Shown here piece by piece: positions 13,834 to 25,188 of a DNA stretch of 32,000 nt (its first letter is position 1; each line of letters opens with the position of its first letter). This DNA comes from an archaeon. Lineage in GTDB: Archaea > Asgardarchaeota > Thorarchaeia > Thorarchaeales > Thorarchaeaceae. The position numbers were made by a program, and so were the translations under genes. The stretch spans positions 1 to 32,000 of the forward strand of contig JAJRZD010000125.1 of the NCBI GenBank assembly GCA_024275415.1, read 5' to 3'. Under the pieces are notes generated by a model. It ran no database searches, was not told the origin of the DNA, and saw nothing but the letters and a program-made list of their open reading frames with translations.

Positions 13834-15093
13834 CTATCCTGTGCGCTTCAAGAATTCTCTAATTGCGATTGCAGCAGACGCTCCCTCTCCAGCAGCTGAT
13901 ATGGCTTGGTTCGTGGCACCTGCCCTACAATCCCCGGCAGCAAAGACACCCATGACACTCGTCTGCATTCCAATGTTAGTTGTTATGAATCCCCGGTCGT
14001 CGGTCTTGATGGTGCCTGCAACGAATTTCGTGTTAGGCTTCAAACCAATGAAAACAAAAAGCCCGTCTGGCGAGTACTCCTTCAGCTCCCCGGTATCAAT
14101 GTGCCTTACCATCACGGACTTGAGCTGGTTCTCACCCTTGAGTTCTACCACCTCTGCATGTGTGATTATCTCAATTCCTTCTTTATCCCCAACCTTCTCC
14201 TGAAGGATTGGCGATGCAGACGGTTTCTCTCCCCGCACGATGATAGTCACTTTCGTGGCGAATTTCTCCTTCAGGTACAACGATTCTTCGAAAGCCGAGT
14301 CACCTCCACCAATGACGAAGAGTTCCTTCCCCTTGTAGAACGCGCCATCACAGGTGGCACAATAGTGGATACTGATTCCTGCTAGATCATCAGAGCCAGG
14401 GACTACTAATTCCCTGTAGTTGCTCCCTGTTGCCACAAGGACTGCATTGCAGAAGAGTTCCGTTCCGTCTGAGGTCACCACTTTCTTGTGGGCACATCTG
14501 TCGAATGACCCCCCGTCTTTCACATCGTGACAAGGAGAGATATCTACTACATCATATGGGAAGAGTATCTCGACACCGAACTTCTTGACTTGCTTCTTCA
14601 GATTCTCTGCGAACACCTCTCCTGTGATGCCTTCAGGAAAGCCAGGGTAATTGTCTAATCTGTTCGTGATGAATGCCTGCCCACCAATCGTCGAACGTTC
14701 GATTACTAGAACCTCATAATCATCTCGTGCAAGATAGAGTGCTGCAGTGAGGCCCGCTGGTCCTCCTCCAATGATGATCACATCATAGAATGTGCTAGCA
14801 GCCTCGGTGGCAAGTCCTAGTGCCTTTGCCAGTTCAACATTGCTAGGCTCGATCAAAAGATGCTCTGACTGCCCCTCCACTATCTGAATCACAGGGATTT
14901 TTTTCATCGGTTTTCCATACATCTTCTCATTCGCAGCAAGAACAAAGTCATAGGCTTCTTTTGATTCAGAGGTTTCAAGCTCGATATCTCTCCATTCATA
15001 ATGGATTCTTTGCTCACCTAGGTATTTTTTTGATCTTCTACAATCCGAACACCAATTGGCGCCGTAAACAACAACCTTCCTCTTTTCACTCAT
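13834..15093 (-). CDS. trxB: Glutaredoxin/NrdH-like domain fused to thioredoxin-disulfide reductase
   Basis: N-terminal YGANWCSDC; FAD motif IIGGGPAGLTAA, active site HYCATCDG, GGGDSA, GVFAAGD. Confidence 0.9.
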   Translation of the reverse strand: MSEKRKVVVYGANWCSDCRRSKKYLGEQRIHYEWRDIELETSESKEAYDFVLAANEKMYGKPMKKIPVIQIVEGQSEHLLIEPSNVELAKALGLATEAASTFYDVIIIGGGPAGLTAALYLARDDYEVLVIERSTIGGQAFITNRLDNYPGFPEGITGEVFAENLKKQVKKFGVEILFPYDVVDISPCHDVKDGGSFDRCAHKKVVTSDGTELFCNAVLVATGSNYRELVVPGSDDLAGISIHYCATCDGAFYKGKELFVIGGGDSAFEESLYLKEKFATKVTIIVRGEKPSASPILQEKVGDKEGIEIITHAEVVELKGENQLKSVMVRHIDTGELKEYSPDGLFVFIGLKPNTKFVAGTIKTDDRGFITTNIGMQTSVMGVFAAGDCRAGATNQAISAAGEGASAAIAIREFLKRTG

Positions 15094-15202: not shown

Positions 15203-16237
15203 CTAGATGAGGTCAGTGACAATCTTATCTGACCACTTCTGTGCTGCAATCGCGTCCGTATAGTCGAACTCTGGCTTTTCATTCCCAAGGCATGCTTGGA
15301 CAAAGTGTGCTATCAGCTGTCGGTGACCCCATATTCGTGGACCCTTGCCTTCTACTTTCCAGTTCTGCGTTTCAGCACCTAGAAGGGACACATCGAATAT
15401 GGACGGATCCTTACTTGGAACCCAATCGACAACGATTGTTTTGCCATTGTTCCCGAATATCTCAAACCTACTGGTGTCCAATCCCTTTTCCACTGTTGAG
15501 CCGTACATCAGTTTTCCAACGACGCCATTTTCAAGCCGGATGACCCCTACTGTCTGGTATCCTTTGAAGTCATCAATGCCTTCGATTGGCATATAGTTTG
15601 CAGCCCATTTGACATTCTCAATATCCGTGCCGAAGAACCAGCGGAACATATCAAGTGACCAGACTGACAATGTATAATCTGGATAACCACCACTCTTTTC
15701 GATGTCCCATGCCCACGATGAAAGTGGCCACTGATCAGCCAGGTCTTTTGCAGCAATGAACTCCCTGAATGTTATTGCGATAGGCTTTCCGATGGCCCCA
15801 CTCTCATAGAGCTCTTTTGCCTTGACATAGCCGGGACATCTTCTAAAGTTAAGTATCGGCATGAGCACGACGCCTTGTTTCTCTGCAAGCTTGCCCAACT
15901 CCTCGGCCTGCTCGAGTTTTGGTGCGATAGGCATTTCCAGATAGACATGCTTACCACCCTCGAGTGCTTCTTTGGCCATTGGATAATGGAACGGGGTGGG
16001 TGTCGCTACACATACCGCGTCAACCTCTGGATCCTTGCATACCTCGCTCCAGTCGTAGTAGATATTGATACCGTACTTCTCTTTCAGTTTGGTTGCGATT
16101 TCCTCGCTTTTTCGCCCCTTTCTCGCAATTACTCCCAAGAGCTTTGAGTTAGGTACTTTCCGAAATGATGGTACATGTGCCTGTCCACCAACAAACCCGA
16201 GACCTGCACAGACCGTTTTAAGTTCCTTATCTGCCAT
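15203..16237 (-). CDS. Gfo/Idh/MocA family oxidoreductase (variant active site)
   Basis: Rossmann CAGLGFVG, VDAVCVATPTPFHY, KHVYLEMP, C-terminal RFEIFGNNG. Start placed at ATG 16237. Confidence 0.9.
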   Translation of the reverse strand: MADKELKTVCAGLGFVGGQAHVPSFRKVPNSKLLGVIARKGRKSEEIATKLKEKYGINIYYDWSEVCKDPEVDAVCVATPTPFHYPMAKEALEGGKHVYLEMPIAPKLEQAEELGKLAEKQGVVLMPILNFRRCPGYVKAKELYESGAIGKPIAITFREFIAAKDLADQWPLSSWAWDIEKSGGYPDYTLSVWSLDMFRWFFGTDIENVKWAANYMPIEGIDDFKGYQTVGVIRLENGVVGKLMYGSTVEKGLDTSRFEIFGNNGKTIVVDWVPSKDPSIFDVSLLGAETQNWKVEGKGPRIWGHRQLIAHFVQACLGNEKPEFDYTDAIAAQKWSDKIVTDLI

Positions 16238-16472
16238 TCCATTCTCGCTCCTTTTCATCATATGAGTCAGATAGTCATGTTATGGTTGGGAGAACATAGT
16301 TCACTCATTCCGTTCACAACTATTGACTCTTGTTTTTGATTGCAGTATGAACGACCTCTGCCTTTTAAGGAATAGGGCTTATTGTAAAGGTGCAAGAATT
16401 TCTTTGTCTTGTTACAAAACGTAAACGACCTGCTATCTTCCTATCGAAATACTGCTGGATTACCTCGGTCTA

Positions 16473-17117
16473 TCATCTTATCGCTTTCAGAGCTCTACTT
16501 GCAACGAACCAGCTTATGTTTCCGAGCATCTCGTGTGGGAGATAGAATATCGAATTTCTGTCAAAGAGCATACGGGCACTTGCTGGGAACTCCTCGTCAG
16601 CCTCTTCAAAGATTATGAGCACTTTTACCATGGGGAGAAAGGACAGCTCAAACCCTACATCTCCGTAGTCTACTCTCTTCGCACCTAACCGCTCGAATGC
16701 TGTATAGAGCTTCTCCCTATTCTCAATAAAAGCAGCAAGGAGTGCTTTGATGTCTTCTTCGTCAAATGAATACCTGCAAGCCCACGACCCTCTCAATGTG
16801 TTGAACTTCACCCATTCGTTCCCGATGCCCTTGTCCTTTGCCTTGCTGTAATAGAAGAGATATGGAATCAACCGGCTGGGTGATGTTTCTGTATTTGTAA
16901 ACGTATCGACAGTCCTTCCTGTTTCAAAATATAATCGGATACCAAGAATGTCCACATATTCGCTTCCCAGTCCAAAATGGTTCCTGATGGACTGGATGTC
17001 ATCCTTGAAATTCTCCCAGCTCCACATTGCTGAACTCGTATCGAACTGCTCGATGTCGTGCTTATGCGCTATCTCTCGCGCGACACCCATCCAATACTCT
17101 AGAATATCGTCCGGCAT
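16473..17117 (-). CDS. DUF3786-like protein
   Basis: C-terminal LSFLPMVKVLIIFEEADEEFPASARMLFD...LPHE resembles DUF3786; AGGTGA 6 nt before ATG. Confidence 0.75.
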   Translation of the reverse strand: MPDDILEYWMGVAREIAHKHDIEQFDTSSAMWSWENFKDDIQSIRNHFGLGSEYVDILGIRLYFETGRTVDTFTNTETSPSRLIPYLFYYSKAKDKGIGNEWVKFNTLRGSWACRYSFDEEDIKALLAAFIENREKLYTAFERLGAKRVDYGDVGFELSFLPMVKVLIIFEEADEEFPASARMLFDRNSIFYLPHEMLGNISWFVASRALKAIR

Positions 17118-17172
17118 AGAAAATCACCTACTCTGATACATCCGTTCCTATCAGTTTTTACAAACGCCATGC

Positions 17173-17964
17173 CTATTCCTTCTTGGCTTTCTCAGGTGCC
17201 GACCTGCAATCCTCAATTCCTGCAGCCTCGCATACAGCATAGCGTGCCTGATACCCTGCAACATGGAGGAGCGCATCACCGACTTCTCTATCCTTAGCCA
17301 TTGACGCCGTGCACGGGTATGCGTGATGGGCTTTAGAGATCACATCGAATAGGTCATCTGTATCTGCTATCGACCGTCCTCTGACCTTCTGGCTGACATA
17401 CCATGTACATCCGCAAGGAGCAGAACGTTTTGGCCCGATCTCGGCAATGATGTCGCCTTTCATGTCCACATAATGGATTGGTCGCCCTAGTCTGTACTGC
17501 TCGATGAACTCGTCAATCAAAGCACCTTCTCCTGGTTCGAGAGTACAGAATGGCTTTGGAAACGCGGATTCAATACCTATCTCATCAAGGGTTTCCTTGA
17601 CTTGCGCGCGCAAACCTGGGGGTATCCATGTTGGATCCTCGATTGGCGCCAAGACGGCTCTCGCACCTGTTATCTTGATCATGTGATCGACCGAAGCAAT
17701 GATGTCGTGGTGGATTGCGACAATCAATAGGAGGTCGCACTTTTCTAGCCCGATTTCGTTGATGTATTGCTCAGGGTCTTCGATAATGGTGGGTGAGGGG
17801 GGGTCAATGGGATAGATTCCCACAATATCGCCCACATAAGATCCATAGGTAGATCTGCATTCTGAGCAGCTAGGCTCACATGCCTGACAGAATGTCCGGA
17901 AGTTGATTAGGTTCCCTATAACTCGCTCAGCGAAGACATCGCCGTAAATGGTCGCTATTCGCAT
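17173..17964 (-). CDS. DUF166-like protein with Cys-rich insert
   Basis: FAERVIGNLIN, FPKPFCTL, RSAPCGCTWYV, HHAYPCTASM, GDALLHVAG; ATG 17964 lies 5 nt after AGGTGG. Confidence 0.75.
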   Translation of the reverse strand: MRIATIYGDVFAERVIGNLINFRTFCQACEPSCSECRSTYGSYVGDIVGIYPIDPPSPTIIEDPEQYINEIGLEKCDLLLIVAIHHDIIASVDHMIKITGARAVLAPIEDPTWIPPGLRAQVKETLDEIGIESAFPKPFCTLEPGEGALIDEFIEQYRLGRPIHYVDMKGDIIAEIGPKRSAPCGCTWYVSQKVRGRSIADTDDLFDVISKAHHAYPCTASMAKDREVGDALLHVAGYQARYAVCEAAGIEDCRSAPEKAKKE

Positions 17965-18090
17965 AGTCGCCACCTAGAAGTGTAAAACGTATCTTAGCAT
18001 GTTACATAAGGATGTTGTTTGCGGCTCTTTCCATCTCCCTAACGGAAATATAATAACTTACAGATGCGCTGACGAATCTGGTGATGCAAC

Positions 18091-18498
18091 ATGGTTCTAG
18101 GTGACCTGCTCTTCCCGAATATCGAAATGAAGCTCGTTATCACACATGATTTTATGAGCGATGTGGAAGCCGCACAGAACAGGATGTCCAATGAGTACCG
18201 GAATGCGACTGCCCTCGTTCGGTTGAGCAAAGGGGATATGCAGAAGCTGGGTCTGAAAGGTGAATCGAATGTGAGCATCCAATCAAAGGCTGGTTCAGTT
18301 GTTGTACATGCGGTAATGGACGAGAACGCTAAGGATGGCCTCGCCGTCGTCCCCTATGGTCCTTGGGCACTTGCACTTGTAGATGTCCCACCTGATGGAT
18401 CTCCGCCACAGTACCACGGGATTCCTGTGACCGTGAAACGGAGCGATGAACAGATTACTCCTCTTCTTGACCTTTTTCAGGACTCTTCATCGTCTTGA
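18091..18498 (+). CDS. fwdD: Formylmethanofuran dehydrogenase subunit D-like protein (divergent)
   Basis: SNEYRNATALVRLSKGDMQKLGL, GSVVV, VPYGPWA, GIPVTV fit the FwdD fold; GGTGA 6 nt before ATG 18091. Confidence 0.82.
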   Translation: MVLGDLLFPNIEMKLVITHDFMSDVEAAQNRMSNEYRNATALVRLSKGDMQKLGLKGESNVSIQSKAGSVVVHAVMDENAKDGLAVVPYGPWALALVDVPPDGSPPQYHGIPVTVKRSDEQITPLLDLFQDSSSS

Positions 18499-19816
18499 TT
18501 AGTTTGTCCACACGACCTCGTTCGACCTGCAGATGGTGTCTTGGCTTCTTCTTGAGGAGGTTTCTCAGATCCTGAGCAGCCCGCATTGCTGCTTTCCTTT
18601 CACCATCTACAGAGTCCCATGCTTCATGTTGTTTGATTTGCTGGGATTCTTTCCTTGCGATATCGACCACGATATCTCTTTCGAACAACCCACTCGATGG
18701 TGGTGATATCCCTACAATGGATTCGAAGGCCCGTTTTCTTGCCGCTTCCCATTCTTTTGCTCTTTCAATCTGGTCTACGTTGTACCCTTCTCGTTTGATG
18801 TCCAACACATCATATGGACATGCTATGACACATGCACCACAATACATGCAATGCTCCAAGATCTCTATCTTGTCTGCCGTTCCTGTGGGGTATATTGCCT
18901 TGATAGGGCAGATGTTGAAGCAATTATGGCACCCTGTCGGATCACATTTATCAAGCTGCTTGATAATGACCTCGCCTGAGAATGGTTTTGTCACTTCAAG
19001 TGCTTCGTATGGGCATACCTCTGCACAGAGTCCACATTTTACGCAAGTTGTGTTATCATGCTTGAGTTCTCCTGTTATTTCAGGCTGTTTGATAGTACGC
19101 GGTCCCGATTCTATGCATTCTACAGAAATCGCATCATCCGGACATATATCTGCACAGAGACCACAATAGTCACAGTGATCCTCATTGACTCTTATCCCGA
19201 CAGCAGGGCGGAAATCTGGAGGCTCCACGGCTTCTGACCAATAGATGGAGATTGCATCAGGACATAGAATCTCACACAGTCCGCAGAAGGAGCATTTCTT
19301 CTCATCGATGTTGATGGTGCCCTTTGCGTATTCTTCACCTTGATACGTGACCAAAGATTCCTTCCGGTTCACTTTCACATCCACTTCAAGGGAGTCTGTC
19401 GGACAAACCTTCGTGCAAAGCACACACGGGGCACATTTCTCTTCATCAATGCGATGGATTCCATCAATCCGCTCATACTCGTTGATGGCTCCCTCTCCCT
19501 CATAACGTGCTTCGAAAGCTCTGAATATACATGCTGAGTCACAGAGGCCACAAAAGGTGCATAGGTCTGGATCCACATTCACAAGGGGTGCTCCCTCAAT
19601 CAGTCCTGAAGCAGTTTCCTTTACGGGTCCCATGGTTATGGCATCCCATGGGCAGATCAAACAGACTCCACATCCCACACATTTTGCTATCTTGTGATCA
19701 AGCACTCTTGTCAGGATTGAGGTCTTCCAGATATAGATTACAGTGCCGTTTGTAACATCCATCGTGACGGTAGGCTTCTCTCCTACTGAAATCCCAGTTC
19801 GCTTTCCCTTATCCAC
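18455..19816 (-). CDS. fwdF: FwdF-like polyferredoxin (8 [4Fe-4S] motifs)
   Basis: Eight ferredoxin motifs: CVGCGVCLICP, CTFCGLCDSAC, CAPCVLCTKVCP, CSFCGLCEILCP, CDYCGLCADICP, CVKCGLCAEVCP, CDPTGCHNCFNICP, CMYCGACVIACP. GTG start at 19816 overlaps the hdrA stop and follows GAAGGTG. Confidence 0.85.
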   Translation of the reverse strand: MDKGKRTGISVGEKPTVTMDVTNGTVIYIWKTSILTRVLDHKIAKCVGCGVCLICPWDAITMGPVKETASGLIEGAPLVNVDPDLCTFCGLCDSACIFRAFEARYEGEGAINEYERIDGIHRIDEEKCAPCVLCTKVCPTDSLEVDVKVNRKESLVTYQGEEYAKGTINIDEKKCSFCGLCEILCPDAISIYWSEAVEPPDFRPAVGIRVNEDHCDYCGLCADICPDDAISVECIESGPRTIKQPEITGELKHDNTTCVKCGLCAEVCPYEALEVTKPFSGEVIIKQLDKCDPTGCHNCFNICPIKAIYPTGTADKIEILEHCMYCGACVIACPYDVLDIKREGYNVDQIERAKEWEAARKRAFESIVGISPPSSGLFERDIVVDIARKESQQIKQHEAWDSVDGERKAAMRAAQDLRNLLKKKPRHHLQVERGRVDKLIKTMKSPEKGQEEE

Positions 19817-22247
19817 GGCCGGCCACCTTCTTGGTTTTAGTACGATGTGAGGCTTTGGCATTCTTGGAGTTTTCACTTCCAAGCGGCCCTAGCTCCGTGA
19901 TAGTATTCACAAAGTCCTCAATCTGTTCGGCGAAAAGATCTGCTTCTGCTGCTGACACACTGCCAAAGTATAGCCGCCGCCCATCTATCCCGATCGCCTC
20001 CAACACTTCACGGAGATTGTCTGTCCTGTCCTTAGCGTATCTAGCTCCTGTCCTGTAGTGACAATCTTGGACATGGCAACCCATCACCGCGACCCCATCC
20101 GCCCCTTCTGAGAATGCAGTGAGGATGTTGTCGATATTAAGCCTTCCAGTACATGGCACTTGGATGTTGATTATATTTGGCGGATAGCGAATCCTTGAGG
20201 TCCCAGCTCTGTCTGCTGCGCCATAGGCACACCACCTGCACAGAAAACCAACAATCGCCGGCCTAAGTGGATTGTAATTCACAGCAGCCCGTGTTGCATT
20301 ATCAAGTTGGTCGTTGTTCAGACATGGAAGATCCATCGCACTAGACGGACACGCACCTACGCATCCACCACACCCTCGACAGGCCGCAATATCGATAATA
20401 GGAACCTTTCCATCATTGAACTTTATCGCATTTGGCGCACACACCTGTTCGCAGAGCCTACATCCGATACAAAGACTCTCATCACAAGATGGCGCACAGA
20501 CTTCCGAAATGATATGCCCTGCAACGAAGAGGGTCTTTACCTTCGAAGCCGCCAGTCCTGCGTGTGCGACCGAATCGGCAATGTCTTTCGGCCCCTGAGC
20601 GACCCCTGCAAGGAATACCCCTTTAGAGTGTGTACTACTCGGGCCAAGTTTTGGATGTTGTTCCAAGAAGAAACCATTCTCATCCAGCGGTGTCTTGAGC
20701 ATCTTTGACAGTTCCACGTTAGTAGGGCTCGCATCCATCCCGACCATCAATACCACGAGATCGACTTCCATCTCTACCAGTCTATGGAGCAGAGTATCCT
20801 CTCCTCTCACGACAGTCTTCCCAGATATAGGGTCCTGAGCAATCTCACCTACCGCCCCGCGCACAAAGACTGCTTTGAACTCCTTTGCCGCACGCAGATA
20901 GAGCTCTTCTTGTCCTTTCCCAAAAGTGCGAATATCATTATAGAACACGTATGATTCAACATCTGGCAATTGCTGTTTGAGTTGGATGACCTCTTTCACT
21001 GCCGCAGCACAGCATACCCTGCTACAATAAGGTCTATTGAATCTGATTGACCTGCTTCCAACACATAGCACAAAGACGACTCGTTTCGGCGGCTTTCCGT
21101 CTGAAGGTCTGACCACTTTTCCACATGTGGGTCCTGCGGGATTGATCAATCGCTCGAACTCTAACGATGTTACTACATCAGGGTTCACCCCATATCCGAG
21201 CTCCTCCACGACCGTCGGGTCGAAAGTTTCGTATCCAGTAGCAGCCACAATCGCTCCGACATTGATGATTTCGGTTTCTTCCACCTCGTCATAACGGAGT
21301 GATTTTGGCTCACAAACGCCTGCACATGACTGACACCCGATGCAATTATCGATATCGATGTAGGGTGCGATTGGCACAGTATCCATTGAGGGTCTGACCA
21401 TCGCCTTTCTCTTGCCAATTCCACTGTTGTACTCATCAGGCACCTCCACTGGACATACCTCAATGCACCGGTTGCACCCCGTGCAAGTGTCTATATCCAC
21501 ATATCGTGCTTTTTGTTCGACCGTCACTTTGTATTGTCCTACGCTGCCTCGAATCCGCTTTACTTGAGCAAGAGTCATTATCCGTATCTTCTCGTGTCTT
21601 GACGCTCTTGCCATCATCGGGCCAAGAATACAGATGCCGCAATCGAATGTCGGGAAAAGTTTATCCCACTTTGCCATATGCCCGCCAATGAAACCCTCTT
21701 TCTCTATGATTACTACTTCTATCCCTGAATCAGCCAATTCTAACGCTGCAGTCAATCCTGCGACTCCTCCACCAATTATCAACGCGCGTTGTGAGATAGG
21801 TGTCTTATACAATGACACAGGTTCAGAGTCACGGATCTTGGCTATGCTCGTATCAATGATTGCTCCTGCTTTCAGCGTTGCTGTTTCTGGGTCATCATAG
21901 TGTACCCAACTGCAATGTTCTCTAATGTTTGCCATCTGCAAATGCCCAGCGTCGAGACCTGCCTCTCTGACAGCATCAGAGAACAATTCCTTGTGGAGCA
22001 GAGGTGAGCATCCAGCAATGACCACTTTTTCAACATCGCTCTGTTTTATTTTCTTGATGAGATCATGCACTCCCTGTTCTGAACAGAGATGGTCATCCAC
22101 CTCCACTAATGGGATGCCCTCTTTCTCATATTTCTCCCTAAGCATTTCCACATCGATGACATCGGCAATGTTGGTTCCACAACGACAAAGGAACACACCT
22201 ATGTTCTTTTTCTGCTTATCCTTGCTTTTTCGTTTCTTACGACTCAG
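19809..22247 (-). CDS. hdrA: Heterodisulfide reductase subunit A fused to C-terminal MvhD [2Fe-2S] domain
   Basis: IGVFLCRCG, AGCSP, REHCSW, GGGVAG, FPTFDCGIC, TSLEFER, LCVGSR, YCSRVCC, inserted and C-terminal ferredoxins; MvhD motifs FLCRWCAYGAAD, VPCTGR, GCHVQDCHY. The start is uncertain: CTG at 22247 is proposed, while the ORF track uses an internal GTG at 22196. Confidence 0.93.
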   Translation of the reverse strand: MSRKKRKSKDKQKKNIGVFLCRCGTNIADVIDVEMLREKYEKEGIPLVEVDDHLCSEQGVHDLIKKIKQSDVEKVVIAGCSPLLHKELFSDAVREAGLDAGHLQMANIREHCSWVHYDDPETATLKAGAIIDTSIAKIRDSEPVSLYKTPISQRALIIGGGVAGLTAALELADSGIEVVIIEKEGFIGGHMAKWDKLFPTFDCGICILGPMMARASRHEKIRIMTLAQVKRIRGSVGQYKVTVEQKARYVDIDTCTGCNRCIEVCPVEVPDEYNSGIGKRKAMVRPSMDTVPIAPYIDIDNCIGCQSCAGVCEPKSLRYDEVEETEIINVGAIVAATGYETFDPTVVEELGYGVNPDVVTSLEFERLINPAGPTCGKVVRPSDGKPPKRVVFVLCVGSRSIRFNRPYCSRVCCAAAVKEVIQLKQQLPDVESYVFYNDIRTFGKGQEELYLRAAKEFKAVFVRGAVGEIAQDPISGKTVVRGEDTLLHRLVEMEVDLVVLMVGMDASPTNVELSKMLKTPLDENGFFLEQHPKLGPSSTHSKGVFLAGVAQGPKDIADSVAHAGLAASKVKTLFVAGHIISEVCAPSCDESLCIGCRLCEQVCAPNAIKFNDGKVPIIDIAACRGCGGCVGACPSSAMDLPCLNNDQLDNATRAAVNYNPLRPAIVGFLCRWCAYGAADRAGTSRIRYPPNIINIQVPCTGRLNIDNILTAFSEGADGVAVMGCHVQDCHYRTGARYAKDRTDNLREVLEAIGIDGRRLYFGSVSAAEADLFAEQIEDFVNTITELGPLGSENSKNAKASHRTKTKKVAGRG

Positions 22248-22423: not shown

Positions 22424-22897
22424 ATGGAGACCTCAAAAGTGAAACTTAATCCCATGGAGATGTATAATCTCCTTCCCAAGACCAACTGTAGACAATGTGA
22501 GCCGAAGACTTGCATGGCATTCGCCACCAAGCTTGCTCTTGGCGACGTGAACCCTGACGATTGCCCTCCGCTGCTTGAAGAAGGATTCGAGGCGAATCTA
22601 CAAAAGATTCGTGACTTGGTTGCCCCAATGCAGTCCGCTGCAGAAACAGGTATCAAGCTTGATGAGTCTAAATGCACAGGTTGTAGCAACTGTGTCGTAG
22701 CATGTCCGGTAGATGTCGCTGCTGAACCTCCTACAAGTGAGGGAAAAGCCGCCCAAGTAGGAACCACAGTGTTCTGGGTGGAGAATGGGATTTCAAAGAT
22801 TATCAACTTGGAGAAATGCAGACGCTTTCCCCCTAATCGTCTGAACTGCAGAGTTTGCGAGCAATACTGCTGCACTAATGCGATCGAAATATGGTAG
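22424..22897 (+). CDS. fwdG: FwdG-like ferredoxin with an N-terminal CdhE-type Fe-S domain
   Basis: LLPKTNCRQCEPKTCMAFA...CP domain, then CTGCSNCVVACPV, GK...VFWVENG, and C-x9-CRVCEQYCC. Confidence 0.8.
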   Translation: METSKVKLNPMEMYNLLPKTNCRQCEPKTCMAFATKLALGDVNPDDCPPLLEEGFEANLQKIRDLVAPMQSAAETGIKLDESKCTGCSNCVVACPVDVAAEPPTSEGKAAQVGTTVFWVENGISKIINLEKCRRFPPNRLNCRVCEQYCCTNAIEIW

Positions 22898-24199
22898 GTG
22901 GCACTGATGGAAGAGATAGTTTGTACAGGATGTTATTTGCTCTGTGATGATTCCACAATTGAAGTCAAAGATGGCTCTTTGAGGTCTCTAGGACTCTGCA
23001 GGCTGGGACATGCACATCTTGAGTCTGCTATTGAACATGCAACACCCAAGGCATTTGTCCGGACGGATGGCAAAAGTAATGAAATTGCGATTGACGATGC
23101 AATTCAACAAGCGGCAGACATCCTTCTTGAGGGTGGTTCACCTCTTCTTATCGGGTGGTCTCAGACCTCCGACGAAGTGATTAAAGAGGGCTTGGATATG
23201 GCTGCTAGAGTGAAGGGCTTCTTTGATTCCATGTCCAGTTTGGGAACATCACAAGCAATGCGCCATGAGATGCACTCATTGAAGCTAGAAGCCGACCTAG
23301 AATATGTTAGGAACCACGGTGAGTTCATCATTTACTGGGGGACTGACCCTAGTGAGAGCCTGCACAGACACCCGAGCAGGTTCGCAGTCCTACCTCGTGG
23401 AGAGAAAATCCCCGAGGGTGTAGAGAGCAGGACTCTTGGCGTGGTCGATGTGCGACAAACAGAAACGATGAAAATAGCCAACCATCGTTTCATCATTCCC
23501 ATAGGGAGCGATGCTGAGCTTCTTGAAACATTGGCAGCAGATATCACTGGTACCTCGAAGATTGATAGTGATGTTCTTGGGATACCAGCGACTGAGGTCA
23601 TAGGCTTCTCCCAGCGGTTCCAGAAATCAGACTGTACTGCGATTTTCTATGGGAGTGGGATTTTGAATTCGGGGAAGCATGCAGATAATCTCGCTGGAAT
23701 ACAGAAGCTTGTTGAGGCAATCAGGTCTATAGGCAAGGAAGCGTTTGCCTTCCCGATGTTCACCGAACCCAACTCGATGGGTGTGATAAAGCATGTGGCC
23801 GATGTCACCTCAGTTCCATGCTCTATTGACTATTCCTCTGGAACTGGTGTTCATAATTCCGATGTGACAGCACTTCAGAAGCTGGTACAAGGCGAGCATT
23901 CAACATCGCTTGTTGTGGGGGATGATGTTCTGGCAGCACTCCCAAGACCCGCCGCAATGGCACTGGCAAAGACACGGATTATTTACATCGGTACCCCGAA
24001 TGCTATCTGCGATAGGTTTGCAGAGATTTCCATCCATACCCCTGATCAGATGCTCGAATCTGGTACAACGATGGAACGGATTGACATGGTCACAGTGACC
24101 TTGAAGGGACTTACACCCCCTGTAGGTTCTAAGCCCACTATACTGGAGGTCATTACGAAGCTCAATGCAGCAATCCATGACCGAGGTGGCGTAAAGTGA
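22898..24199 (+). CDS. fwdB: Formylmethanofuran dehydrogenase subunit B-like protein lacking W/Mo catalytic residues
   Basis: CTGCYLLCDD...C cluster, PLLIGWSQTS, IIYWGTDP, RHPSRF, VVDVRQTET follow the FwdB backbone. The canonical SVCHG and MRGHYN motifs are replaced. Confidence 0.85.
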   Translation: MALMEEIVCTGCYLLCDDSTIEVKDGSLRSLGLCRLGHAHLESAIEHATPKAFVRTDGKSNEIAIDDAIQQAADILLEGGSPLLIGWSQTSDEVIKEGLDMAARVKGFFDSMSSLGTSQAMRHEMHSLKLEADLEYVRNHGEFIIYWGTDPSESLHRHPSRFAVLPRGEKIPEGVESRTLGVVDVRQTETMKIANHRFIIPIGSDAELLETLAADITGTSKIDSDVLGIPATEVIGFSQRFQKSDCTAIFYGSGILNSGKHADNLAGIQKLVEAIRSIGKEAFAFPMFTEPNSMGVIKHVADVTSVPCSIDYSSGTGVHNSDVTALQKLVQGEHSTSLVVGDDVLAALPRPAAMALAKTRIIYIGTPNAICDRFAEISIHTPDQMLESGTTMERIDMVTVTLKGLTPPVGSKPTILEVITKLNAAIHDRGGVK

Positions 24200-25002
24200 A
24201 GGTCGCAGTCGCAGGAAAGGGCGGAGTAGGAAAAACGACCGTCGCAGGAACCATTGCCCGCTTGCTTGGTCGTGATGGACTGAAGATACTTGCCGTGGAT
24301 GCTGATCCCAGCTACACGCTCTGGTCGGCGATAGGCATCCCTCAAGAGGTCGCAGACACAATTGTTCCCCTGACCGAGAACGAGGAGCTCGTGGAAGAAC
24401 GGTTGCAGATCAAGGAGGTTGGACCTACCTCGACAGGCGTGTTCAAGCTGAACCCACGAGTCGATGACCTCGCCATAAAATTCGCGGTTCCTGGTCCTGA
24501 CAATGTGCATCTCCTTGTGGCCGGTACTGTTGATACTGGAGGTTCCGGATGCATGTGTCCTTCAGCCACATTGCTGAAGTCGTTGATGCGTTATCTTGTT
24601 ATTGGAACCGACGAAGCTTTTGTGATGGACATGGATGCTGGTGTTGAGAATCTTGGACGTGGCACGACCCGAGGGATGGACGCGTTGATTGTCGTTGTCG
24701 AGCCGGGACGGAGGTCTCTTGACATCATGGGGAAAATAAAGAAGCTTGCAGCAGACATTGAGGTCGGACTAATTCTTGCCGTCGGGAACAAGGTAGTCAC
24801 TCCAGAAGACTCGGAGATGATCCGTGAGCGCGTTTCAGCCGAAGGGATCCCTCTCCTAGGGCTTGTCCCTCTAGATGAATCGATTCGAAAGGCTGACCGA
24901 AAGGGAATTGCACCTATCGATTTGAACGACCAATCTCCCGCCATGCTGGAGATTAGGGACATAAAAGAAAGACTTGTCGAGAGAATCGCCCAAGTTTCAT
25001 AA
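24196..25002 (+). CDS. cooC: CODH nickel-insertion ATPase (CooC/AcsF family)
   Basis: Deviant Walker A GKGGVGKTT, VDADP, Ni-binding GCMCP, DMDAGVENLGRG; GTGA overlap with the fwdB-like stop. Confidence 0.93.
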   Translation: MKVAVAGKGGVGKTTVAGTIARLLGRDGLKILAVDADPSYTLWSAIGIPQEVADTIVPLTENEELVEERLQIKEVGPTSTGVFKLNPRVDDLAIKFAVPGPDNVHLLVAGTVDTGGSGCMCPSATLLKSLMRYLVIGTDEAFVMDMDAGVENLGRGTTRGMDALIVVVEPGRRSLDIMGKIKKLAADIEVGLILAVGNKVVTPEDSEMIRERVSAEGIPLLGLVPLDESIRKADRKGIAPIDLNDQSPAMLEIRDIKERLVERIAQVS

Positions 25003-25188
25003 TGAAACCCGCTCGTTTTCTTTTCAAAAACATATCTCTCCTCAGAAGGGTTTTCGTAATCGAACTTCTCTTTCCGCTTAATTAATGAAATCGAACATCA
25101 TTTTTTACTTTCAGCCGTCCATTCATAACTTTCTTATGGTCGAATGTTTCAATTCAAAAGCACCACGCACACAGGAACTGAGCTAAAC

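What the first reader, a model, noticed from the sequence alone, without database searches (positions are those of the whole stretch)
22898..24199. FwdB paralog stripped of its tungsten/molybdenum active site (pseudo-enzyme or FhcB-like subunit)
Seen: where FwdB/FmdB read DNTASVCHG, this protein reads DSMSSLGTS (Gly116 codon GGA at 23243-23245, Thr next). Where they read PMRGHYN it reads PMFTEPN (23753-23773). GWSxTSCE has become GWSQTSDE, while the N-terminal [4Fe-4S] motif CxxCxxxC...C is intact. Established: the CH pair supplies the metal-ligating Cys/Sec and adjacent His, and RGH supplies the CO2/formate-site Arg and His. FhcB of methylotrophic bacteria is a known pterin-less FwdB homologue. 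Inference: this subunit cannot reduce CO2 but is kept full-length in an operon with cooC, so it probably acts as a structural, Fe-S relay or formate-channel subunit. I do not know of such a subunit described next to archaeal CODH/ACS.
Basis: partly seen in the sequence, partly recalled or inferred. Interest (0 to 1): 0.85.

Follow-up and report, generated by a model that had tools for sequence, protein, structure and literature searches.

The report
Catalytically dead FwdB beside CODH/ACS
An Asgard (Thorarchaeota) archaeon keeps a second copy of the CO2-reducing subunit FwdB that has lost its metal-site residues but kept its iron-sulfur cluster. It most likely serves as a non-catalytic relay or scaffold in an Hdr-linked electron wire that serves the acetyl-CoA synthase operon.

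Summary
ORF 22898-24199 (433 aa; likely start ATG 22907) is a full-length FwdB homologue (TIGR03129 249 bits against a cut-off of 327.8; model TM 0.85-0.88 to solved FwdB). It keeps the CxxCxxxC...C [4Fe-4S] motif. It has Gly for Cys118 and has lost His119, Arg288 and His290.

This is a family trait, not an error. Of 118 relatives, 114 have Gly and none has a Cys within 3 columns. The family is found almost only in Thorarchaeota. dN/dS is 0.08-0.17, so selection is purifying but 2-4 times laxer than on the neighbouring genes.

The genome also has a canonical fwdABD on another contig, plus moaC and moeA.

Within the class, B* occurs only in genera that have CdhA.

B* is not FhcB-like, because it keeps the Fe-S domain and a D partner. 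My best reading (about 0.6) is a non-catalytic Fe-S relay or scaffold of an Fwd-derived wire between Hdr and CODH/ACS. Whether pterin is bound remains untested.

The scan noted the same module earlier in another Thorarchaeota genome (e1-2790923).

The parts
22898..24199 (+). FwdB* : FwdB paralogue without metal-site residues (likely start ATG 22907; stop TGA 24197-24199 overlaps the cooC start)
   Evidence: TIGR03129 E 4.8e-74, 249 bits, below the 327.8 cut-off; no Pfam hit. 26% identity to the genome's own canonical FwdB. AF2 model pLDDT 84.6, pTM 0.86. Foldseek top hits are FwdB 8rja_B, 5t5i_B and 7bkb_H.
22922..22999 (+). Codons for C9, C12, C16 and C34: the retained N-terminal [4Fe-4S] motif CxxCxxxC...C
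   Evidence: Kept in 116-117 of 118 family members. These residues lie in the predicted interface with the Fe-S partner.
23243..23245 (+). Gly116 (GGA) at the position of the W/Mo-ligating Cys118 of FwdB
   Evidence: Gly in 114 of 118 relatives, against Cys in 24 of 24 canonical sequences.
23753..23773 (+). PMFTEPN in place of PMRGHYN (Arg288 and His290 lost)
   Evidence: The Arg column is F, Y or W in 98 of 118 relatives.
23372..23440 (+). Residues 159-181: the family's most conserved segment. It forms much of the predicted contact surface with the FwdG-like protein.
   Evidence: Invariant or near-invariant in 118 sequences. Low pLDDT when folded alone. Residues 159-162, 165-168 and 174-175 are in the modelled interface.
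22424..22897 (+). Small Fe-S protein: a CdhE/RnfB-type N-terminal 'FeS' domain plus an FwdG-like two-cluster ferredoxin (12 conserved Cys, enough for three clusters). Its stop abuts the B* start.
   Evidence: Pfam PF04060 and Fer4. Alignment A4 is 78-90% identical across Thorarchaeota. Complex model with B*: ipSAE 0.89 against a best control of 0.00.
18091..18498 (+). FwdD* : FwdD-like (MopB domain IV) protein with degenerate capping motifs
   Evidence: Pfam PF01568, E 2.7e-10. Present beside the polyferredoxin in 30 Thorarchaeota loci at 45-66% identity. The TGR, GPWAN and GMPxFK motifs are replaced.
18455..19882 (-). FwdF-like polyferredoxin
   Evidence: NF042909 FwdF 225 bits (cut-off 375). 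Six CxxCxxCxxxC motifs plus one variant.
19809..22196 (-). HdrA2-MvhD fusion, divergent from the small Fe-S gene and B*
   Evidence: NF040770 HdrA2 E 1.6e-270 (below cut-off). Pfam FlpD at residues 648-770.
24196..25002 (+). CooC-type P-loop ATPase (CODH nickel insertion)
   Evidence: Pfam CbiA/ParA/NifH-type. Follows B* in every complete Thorarchaeota locus.
25144..32000 (+). cdhA (25144-27534), cdhB (27537-28082), cdhC (28084-29490), cdhD (29487-30674), cdhE (30675 to the window end): archaeal CODH/ACS
   Evidence: TIGR00314, TIGR00315, TIGR00316 and TIGR00381 all above cut-off. The last ORF has PF04060 plus CdhD-family domains.

Best explanation
FwdB* is a non-catalytic descendant of the CO2-reducing subunit of formylmethanofuran dehydrogenase. 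It cannot form the Cys/Sec-ligated W/Mo centre or bind CO2/formate as FwdB does. It keeps its N-terminal [4Fe-4S] domain and the fold.

Together with a co-degenerated FwdD-like cap it forms the core of an Fwd-derived module. An FwdG-like three-cluster protein docks on that core, and an FwdF-like polyferredoxin extends it to an HdrA2-MvhD flavoprotein.

By analogy with the methanogen Hdr-Fmd supercomplexes, this chain of clusters would carry low-potential (bifurcated) electrons. Here the terminal CO2-reducing site is gone, and the module is genetically tied to CooC and CdhABCDE. The likely recipient or donor is therefore CODH/ACS: the C-cluster, or reductive activation of the corrinoid through the CdhE-like mobile Fe-S domain of the small protein.

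Shown: loss of the catalytic residues, purifying selection, fixed gene order, and co-distribution with cdhA. Modelled: the B*-small Fe-S protein interface. Inferred: absence of cofactor, electron flow, and the link to CODH/ACS.
For: 1. Catalytic residues. Cys118 is Gly in 114 of 118 relatives with no nearby Cys, and His119, Arg288 and His290 are lost. The roles of these residues are given in PMC6926001 and PMC11656701.
2. It is a functional gene. dN/dS is 0.08-0.17 over 25 pairs, against 0.02-0.07 for hdrA2, the small Fe-S gene, cooC and cdhACD. Mean pairwise identity is 55% for B* and 55% for D*, against 73-85% for the neighbours.
3. Of 83 columns conserved in canonical FwdB, 37 are kept, 16 are changed to another conserved residue and 30 have become variable. 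The losses cluster at the active site and in segment 305-326, which is deleted in 101 of 118.
4. FwdD* has lost TGR, the Asn of GPWAN and the Lys of GMPxFK. The FwdD-like partners of Cys-bearing sister proteins keep Asn and FK.
5. Gene order FwdD* / polyFd / HdrA2-MvhD | small Fe-S / B* / CooC / CdhABCDE is identical in about 40 species loci.
6. In 87 genomes of the class, B* (41 genomes) and the small Fe-S protein (44) occur only in the 5 genera that also have CdhA. Eight genera with canonical FwdB but no CdhA have neither. The one genome with the module but no CdhA carries truncated hdrA2 and B*.
7. The complex model places the FwdG-like part on the Fe-S domain and on the family-specific invariant loop. 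ipSAE is 0.89, best control 0.00; that mark was reached by 58 of 80 solved complexes and 2 of 110 mismatched pairs. The runs agree in at least 98% of contacts and the partner's pLDDT is at least 86. FwdB-FwdG is a solved pair, so this pass may reflect likeness to that structure.
8. The tree nests the family (support 100) inside a group of FwdB-like proteins that always sit with a small Fe-S protein, HdrA2-MvhD and a polyferredoxin.
9. There are precedents for non-catalytic MopB subunits: FhcB (PMC6926001) and an HdrA-linked Molybdop clade in Methanosarcinales/ANME (PMC12054007).
Against: - No metal, pterin or Fe-S measurement exists, and no expression data.
- Many residues shared with canonical FwdB are still invariant (D184, R186, D205, F250/G252/G254, N292, D343, R394, D396). 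Some may be dinucleotide-binding positions, so a bound pterin or nucleotide is not excluded.
- MopB enzymes without a protein ligand to the metal exist (arsenite oxidase; my own knowledge).
- In canonical Fwd the FwdB cluster is the end of the wire, so a relay role needs an exit route that has not been identified.
- No hdrBC or electron-donor module lies in the locus. The genome has about 20 CCG-domain genes elsewhere.
- Physical contact with CODH/ACS is untested.
- Co-distribution across genera involves related lineages, so it is not a set of independent events.
Confidence: 0.6

Rival explanations
1. B*D* still holds a pyranopterin cofactor, either W/Mo-bisPGD with no protein ligand (as in arsenite oxidase) or a metal-free pterin or nucleotide. 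It would use it for a reaction or redox step other than CO2/formate conversion.
For: A dedicated FwdD-like cap is retained in every locus, whereas FhcB lost its cap (PMC6926001). Many fold and nucleotide-type motifs remain invariant: WGxDP, VDxRxTET, GxD, FYGxG, RxD. The family has its own invariant polar residues that the modelled interface does not explain: H123, H126, N195, H196, R197, D245, C246. The cell makes the cofactor, since moaC, moeA and a canonical fwdB are present. Sister proteins keep Cys-His but lack Arg288, which suggests a non-formate chemistry already existed in the ancestor.
Against: All four first- and second-sphere residues are gone, and the columns that replace them are variable apart from Gly, which is not what a new active site would look like. 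An aromatic residue replaces Arg288 in 98 of 118. FwdD* lost its capping motifs in step with B*. Bacterial Cys-less FwdB-like proteins keep the same WGxDP and VVD motifs, so retaining these motifs does not prove cofactor binding. Both B* and D* evolve 2-4 times faster than their neighbours.
Confidence: 0.2
2. B* is an assembly or maturation factor for CODH/ACS, acting with CooC in nickel or cluster insertion rather than in electron transfer.
For: The B* stop overlaps the cooC start. B* is found only in CdhA-bearing genera. A related cluster has cooT upstream and cooC-cdhA downstream of the Hdr/FwdB-like genes. His and Cys residues are conserved in the family.
Against: Related FwdB-like proteins occur with a small Fe-S protein, HdrA2 and a polyferredoxin but with no cooC or cdh within 8 kb. 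The constant partners are electron-transfer proteins. No MopB-fold metallochaperone is known (my own knowledge).
Confidence: 0.08
3. B* is an FhcB-type scaffold of a formyltransferase/hydrolase-like complex that releases or channels formate.
For: It shares with FhcB the loss of Cys118, His119 and Arg288 (PMC6926001).
Against: No FhcA/FwdA, FhcC/FwdC or Ftr gene lies in the module. B* keeps the Fe-S domain and a D partner, both of which FhcB lacks. Fold similarity to FhcB is TM 0.66 against 0.85-0.88 to FwdB. B* does not branch with the bacterial Cys-less group.
Confidence: 0.03
4. B* is a decaying relic with no function, carried along in the operon.
For: It evolves faster than all its neighbours. 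It has an indel-variable segment.
Against: It is an intact ORF in 41 species genomes. dN/dS is 0.08-0.17. There are 63 invariant columns in a 16-sequence alignment, including a family-specific invariant loop. It is truncated only in the one genome that lacks CODH/ACS.
Confidence: 0.03

Closest known systems
FwdB/FmdB with FwdD, FwdG and FwdF of formylmethanofuran dehydrogenase (M. wolfeii 5T5I; M. hungatei Fdh-Hdr-Fmd 7BKB)
   Same: Same fold over the full length (TM 0.85-0.88). Same N-terminal [4Fe-4S] motif. A separate D subunit, a ferredoxin docked on the Fe-S domain, a polyferredoxin, and genetic linkage to HdrA.
   Different: Cys118, His119, Arg288 and His290 are lost. The FwdD capping motifs are lost. 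No FwdA or FwdC. The score is below the TIGR03129 cut-off. The FwdG-like partner carries an extra CdhE-type Fe-S domain. The genes sit in the cooC-cdhABCDE operon rather than with fwdAC.
FhcB of the methylotroph formyltransferase/hydrolase complex (6S6Y; PMC6926001)
   Same: An FwdB-derived subunit that lost the metal-site residues and acts as a scaffold.
   Different: FhcB also lost the Fe-S domain and has no D subunit. It works with FhcA, FhcC and FhcD in aerobic bacteria. B* is an independent loss within an archaeal, Hdr-associated branch.
Non-catalytic 'Molybdop' protein in hdrABC-mvhD-fdhB clusters of Methanosarcinales/ANME (PMC12054007)
   Same: A MopB protein without the key Cys, encoded beside hdrA and proposed to be a structural subunit of an Hdr complex.
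   Different: That clade is related to FdhA/FdhG and is paired with FdhB (F420). B* is FwdB-derived, is paired with FwdD-, FwdG- and FwdF-like proteins and with CODH/ACS, and occurs in Asgard archaea.
NuoG/Nqo3 C-terminal domain of respiratory complex I
   Same: A MopB fold without the pterin cofactor, kept as part of an Fe-S-bearing electron-transfer subunit (Foldseek hits).
   Different: It is fused to other domains, belongs to a different branch, and lies in a membrane complex.

Membership tests
FwdB/FmdB (TIGR03129, formylmethanofuran dehydrogenase subunit B) | Score above the curated equivalog cut-off | tested here: not met
   249.4 bits against a cut-off of 327.8. The genome's canonical copy scores 552 bits.
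FwdB/FmdB (TIGR03129, formylmethanofuran dehydrogenase subunit B) | MopB domains I-III fold with an N-terminal CxxCxxxC...C [4Fe-4S] motif | tested here: met
   Model TM 0.85-0.88 to 8rja_B, 5t5i_B and 7bkb_H. C9, C12, C16 and C34 are conserved.
FwdB/FmdB (TIGR03129, formylmethanofuran dehydrogenase subunit B) | Cys or Sec ligand of W/Mo with the adjacent His (Cys118-His119) | tested here: not met
   Gly-Thr here. Gly in 114 of 118 relatives, and no Cys within 3 columns.
FwdB/FmdB (TIGR03129, formylmethanofuran dehydrogenase subunit B) | Arg288 and His290 of the CO2/formate site (PMRGHYN) | tested here: not met
   PMFTEPN here. The Arg column is F, Y or W in 98 of 118.
FwdB/FmdB (TIGR03129, formylmethanofuran dehydrogenase subunit B) | FwdD partner that caps the bis-PGD cofactor | tested here: inconclusive
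   An FwdD-like gene is present and conserved, but its TGR, GPWAN and GMPxFK motifs are replaced.
FwdB/FmdB (TIGR03129, formylmethanofuran dehydrogenase subunit B) | Encoded and working with FwdA and FwdC | tested here: not met
   There is no fwdA or fwdC in the window or in about 40 related loci. fwdA-fwdB-fwdD lie on contig C113.
FwdB/FmdB (TIGR03129, formylmethanofuran dehydrogenase subunit B) | Bound W/Mo-bisPGD | not testable with these tools
   Needs metal and pterin analysis of the protein.
FhcB (formyltransferase/hydrolase scaffold) | Loss of Cys118, His119 and Arg288 | tested here: met
   PMC6926001.
FhcB (formyltransferase/hydrolase scaffold) | N-terminal Fe-S domain absent and no domain-IV (FwdD) partner | tested here: not met
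   The Fe-S motif is intact and an FwdD-like gene is conserved.
FhcB (formyltransferase/hydrolase scaffold) | Encoded with fhcA, fhcC and fhcD | tested here: not met
   None is in the locus.
HdrA-associated non-catalytic Molybdop clade (PMC12054007) | No metal-ligand Cys; gene clustered with hdrA | tested here: met
HdrA-associated non-catalytic Molybdop clade (PMC12054007) | FdhA/FdhG-related sequence paired with FdhB | tested here: not met
   The best families and structures are FwdB. There is no FdhB in the window.
Hdr-Fwd type electron wire (HdrA - FwdF - FwdG - FwdB cluster) | Polyferredoxin gene coupled to hdrA; two-cluster ferredoxin docking on the FwdB Fe-S domain | tested here: met
   FwdF-like hit of 225 bits, with ORFs overlapping hdrA2. 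Complex model ipSAE 0.89 against 0.00 for the best control; the mark was reached by 58 of 80 solved complexes and 2 of 110 mismatched pairs. The model supports binding but does not show it, and a like complex has been solved.
Hdr-Fwd type electron wire (HdrA - FwdF - FwdG - FwdB cluster) | Physical complex and electron transfer to a terminal catalytic site | not testable with these tools
   Needs purification and cryo-EM or enzyme assays.

The most novel reading that the evidence does not exclude
B*D* is the docking adaptor of a new supercomplex in which HdrA2-MvhD flavin-based bifurcation is hard-wired, through FwdF- and FwdG-like clusters, to archaeal CODH/ACS. Thorarchaeota would then reduce CO2 to CO/acetyl-CoA, or activate the corrinoid, without free ferredoxin. 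This would be an Asgard counterpart of the methanogen Hdr-Fmd supercomplex, built by disabling and re-using an Fwd module.
Probability: 0.3. Interest if true: 0.8.

Novelty: new variant of a known kind. Interest (0 to 1): 0.6.

Why it matters
Non-catalytic MopB subunits are known: FhcB, NuoG and a Methanosarcinales Hdr-linked clade. This is an independent case with a different anatomy. The Fe-S domain and the D partner are kept, both B and D have degenerated together, and the module is fused into the CODH/ACS operon of an Asgard lineage.

If the module wires Hdr bifurcation to CODH/ACS, it changes how carbon fixation and energy conservation in Thorarchaeota should be modelled. It would also extend the supercomplex principle beyond methanogens.

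Practically, these genes are often annotated as 'formylmethanofuran dehydrogenase subunit B' (JGI names). That label overstates Fwd copy number in metabolic reconstructions. The wider sister group, in which Cys is kept and Arg288 is lost and which always sits with HdrA2, points to an unstudied Hdr-linked MopB enzyme family.

Tried and rejected
- Sequencing runs holding window:18091-25002: none was listed, and no RNA holder was listed. There is therefore no statement on expression.
- Pfam gave no hit for B* at E up to 0.01.
- Five literature searches found no paper describing this Thorarchaeota family or an FwdB-like gene in a cdh operon. This covers only the held open-access library.
- I tried to judge pterin binding from motif retention and dropped it. 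Bacterial Cys-less FwdB-like proteins keep the same WGxDP and VVD motifs, so the test does not discriminate.
- I could not superpose the model on 5T5I to look for clashes with the pterin, because model coordinates are not returned.
- I considered a complex job of B* with CdhA or CdhB but did not run it. B* plus CdhA exceeds the size limit, the prior for CdhB was low, and the single job went to B* plus the small Fe-S protein.
- Pseudogene or assembly-error reading: rejected.
- FhcB membership: rejected (see the membership test).
- HdrBC as neighbours: not in this locus. The genome has about 20 CCG-domain genes elsewhere, so no partner can be named.
Full report
**1. The observation**

ORF 22898-24199 (+) translates to 433 residues without a stop. 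Gly116 is GGA at 23243-23245, followed by Thr. PMFTEPN is residues 286-292 (23753-23773).

HMMER against PDB sequences gives FwdB of M. wolfeii (5t5i_B, E 1.1e-37) as the best match. In that alignment DNTASVCHG pairs with DSMSSLGTS, and PMRGHYN pairs with PMFTEPN. BLASTP against the genome's own canonical FwdB (26% identity) shows the same pairing. NCBIfam TIGR03129 matches end to end at 249 bits, under the 327.8 cut-off. Pfam finds nothing.

The N-terminal CxxCxxxC...C motif is intact. The GWSxTSCE to GWSQTSDE change is real but uninformative, because the genome's own canonical FwdB reads GLSSTEND. The likely start is ATG 22907: the database copy is 430 aa, and the small Fe-S gene's TAG ends at 22897. 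The stop overlaps the cooC start as GTGA.

**2. A family trait, not an accident**

A word-indexed search found more than 100 clusters at 45-63% identity. Nearly all are from Thorarchaeota/'Promethearchaeota' MAGs, with a few labelled Odin or Sif. NCBI calls them hypothetical and JGI calls them FwdB.

In 118 of them the Cys118 column is G 114, A 2, I 1, S 1, and no sequence has a Cys within three columns. The His119 column is variable. The Arg288 column is F, Y or W in 98. The His290 column is mostly E or Q. The four Fe-S cysteines are kept in 116-117.

Pairwise dN/dS for 25 pairs with dS below 1.6 is 0.08-0.17. The values for hdrA2, the small Fe-S gene, cooC, cdhA, cdhC and cdhD are 0.02-0.07. 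Mean pairwise identity is 55%, against 73-85% for those neighbours. The gene is therefore under purifying selection, but clearly relaxed relative to its operon.

**3. The genome has a normal Fwd as well**

TIGR03129 finds a 552-bit copy on contig C113 with SSVCHG and PMRGHYN, flanked by fwdA and fwdD. moaC and moeA are present. The cofactor is therefore available, and its availability does not discriminate between the readings.

**4. Surroundings**

On the + strand the order is:
- small Fe-S protein (22424-22897; PF04060 'FeS' domain plus ferredoxin motifs; 12 conserved Cys);
- B*;
- CooC;
- CdhA, B, C, D, E.

Divergently on the − strand lie HdrA2-MvhD (19809-22196) and an FwdF-like polyferredoxin (18455-19882). 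Convergent with the polyferredoxin is a 135-aa ORF (18091-18498) with the Molydop_binding domain, i.e. an FwdD-like protein.

tblastn of these proteins against 40 Thorarchaeota loci from species-representative genomes shows the same order and orientation wherever the contig reaches. The FwdD-like gene is present in all 30 loci that extend that far, at 45-66% identity.

**5. B and D degenerated together**

Canonical FwdD proteins share LxTGRTxxQG, GPWAN and GMPxFK. The Thorarchaeota FwdD-like proteins read LVI[AST][HR]xF, GPWAL and PPQxHG. The FwdD-like partners of Cys-bearing sister proteins keep the Asn and the FK. An earlier first-reader note (e1-5445724) suggested this comparison, and I tested it here.

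Of 83 columns at least 85% conserved in 24 canonical FwdB sequences, 37 are kept in the family, 16 are replaced by another conserved state and 30 are variable. The losses cluster at the two active-site loops and at segment 305-326, which is deleted in 101 of 118 members.

**6. Evolutionary position**

An exhaustive HMMER search gave 667 representatives. Many FwdB-like clusters lack the Cys.

A quick ML tree of 101 sequences (LG+G4, SH-aLRT) puts the Thorarchaeota family in one clade with support 100. That clade is nested, at 93-100 on the nearer nodes, in a group with the signature CTGCSLLCDD that has lost Arg288 but mostly keeps Cys-His. The deep split from canonical FwdB is weak (69), and the root is only a midpoint.

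Contexts of six members of that group, plus Sif/Borr/'Prometheus' loci, always show a small Fe-S protein, the FwdB-like gene, an HdrA2-MvhD fusion of about 790 aa and a polyferredoxin. They often include hdrBC and an FwdD-like gene, and three times a cooC-like gene; one locus has cooT ... cooC-cdhA. B* is thus a derived, Cys-less branch of an Hdr-associated FwdB-like family. It is not a relative of the bacterial Cys-less group.

**7. Link to CODH/ACS**

Among 87 genomes of the class:
- canonical FwdB is in 66;
- B* is in 41;
- CdhA is in 46;
- the small Fe-S protein is in 44.

B* and the small protein occur only in genera g1, g3, g6, g11 and g12, all of which have CdhA. Eight genera with canonical FwdB but no CdhA have neither.

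Apparent CdhA-only genomes are explained by contig ends, or by a second cdhAB-only locus. One closed MAG chromosome (L042) lacks CODH/ACS. It carries hdrA2 cut at residue 472 and B* cut at residue 182, both flanked by unrelated genes. These genera are related, so the pattern is suggestive rather than a statistical proof.

**8. Structure and partner**

AF2 with the family alignment gives pLDDT 84.6 and pTM 0.86. Only residues 165-176 fall below 50, although that loop is invariant.

Foldseek ranks FwdB chains first (8rja_B, 5t5m_B, 5t5i, 7bkb_H; TM 0.83-0.88). NuoG and FhcB (TM 0.66) follow.

A complex model of B* with the small Fe-S protein and four [4Fe-4S] ligands supports binding. ipSAE is 0.89 against a best control of 0.00; that mark was reached by 58 of 80 solved complexes and 2 of 110 mismatched pairs. 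The runs agree in at least 98% of contacts, and the partner's pLDDT is at least 86. FwdB-FwdG is a solved pair, so the pass may come from likeness to that structure.

The interface uses B* residues 16-20, 28-39 (the Fe-S domain), 151-168, 174-175 and 189-193. It contacts the ferredoxin part of the partner (residues 84-152). That accounts for much of the family-specific invariant surface. The CdhE-type N-terminal domain of the partner is left free.

**9. Interpretation**

The roles of Cys118, His119, Arg288 and His290 are established (PMC6926001, PMC11656701). Direct wiring of HdrA to FmdB through polyferredoxin clusters is established in methanogens (PMC13580544, PMC13518236).

Here the same parts list is present (HdrA, MvhD, F, G, B, D) without A and C and without the catalytic centre, and it is welded to cooC-cdhABCDE. 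My best reading (about 0.6) is a non-catalytic Fe-S relay or scaffold of an Hdr-linked wire that serves CODH/ACS.

The main rival (about 0.2) is that a pterin or nucleotide is still bound and has some other role. A role in CODH maturation (about 0.08), an FhcB-like role and a relic are less likely.

**10. Novelty**

I found no description of this family in the held literature. A MopB survey counted 83 Asgard FwdB homologues and noted Cys-less hits without analysing them (PMC10100899). A conceptually similar dead MopB sits beside hdrA in Methanosarcinales/ANME (PMC12054007).

The scan had already noted the same module in another Thorarchaeota genome (e1-2790923), and first readers noted the system on this window. 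My verdicts rest on the tests above.

Noticed in passing
L042:7669-11056 (CP070658.1, Thorarchaeota bin8 chromosome): This is a remnant of the module. hdrA2 is cut after residue 472 and B* after residue 182, while the small Fe-S gene is intact. ABC-transporter and malic-enzyme genes flank it, and no CdhA was found in that genome. It could be real decay after loss of CODH/ACS, or a MAG assembly artefact.
   Followed up: partly
L100:9355-12236 and L101:9652-12545 (G067:C94, G065:C21): Some Thorarchaeota carry a second locus with cdhA-cdhB only, at 80% identity to the window's CdhA. It has no cooC, no cdhCDE and no B* module. In L100, HdrA-like genes lie within 8 kb.
   Followed up: partly
L044, L045, L049, L083, L085-L091: A wider family of FwdB-like proteins keeps Cys-His but has lost Arg288 (PM[AISV]GH or PMAE). 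It always sits with a small Fe-S protein, HdrA2-MvhD and a polyferredoxin, and often with hdrBC and an FwdD-like gene. It occurs in Sif/Borr and other archaea. The substrate is unknown, and the family looks like an unstudied Hdr-linked Mo/W enzyme.
   Followed up: partly
window 15203-17973 (-): DUF166 (17173-17973), DUF3786 (16473-17117) and a GFO/IDH/MocA oxidoreductase (15203-16261) lie next to FwdD*. They recur in the same place in many Thorarchaeota loci. Their function is unknown.
   Followed up: partly
window 23810-23860 (B* residues about 305-321): This is a presence/absence polymorphism. The window's protein and 16 other members keep a segment of about 20 residues that is conserved in canonical FwdB, here diverged. 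The other 101 members have deleted it.
   Followed up: partly
L086:1785-3735: In one Hdr-associated FwdB-like cluster (P0134), an FwdD-like gene is followed by an FwdA-like amidohydrolase of 516 aa. Some sister modules may therefore still be complete enzymes.
   Followed up: no
proteins P0162, P0168, P0170, P0174, P0184, P0187, P0194, P0195, P0197; L063, L072 (Acidobacteriota): A large group of FwdB-like proteins, bacterial in the two loci whose organism is known (L063, L072, Acidobacteriota), keeps the N-terminal CxxCxxxC motif but has no Cys-His and no RGH. They differ from classical FhcB, which lacks the Fe-S domain.
   Followed up: no
window 13834-15093 (-): A glutaredoxin domain is fused to a pyridine-nucleotide disulfide oxidoreductase (419 aa) a few genes from the Hdr module.
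   Followed up: no
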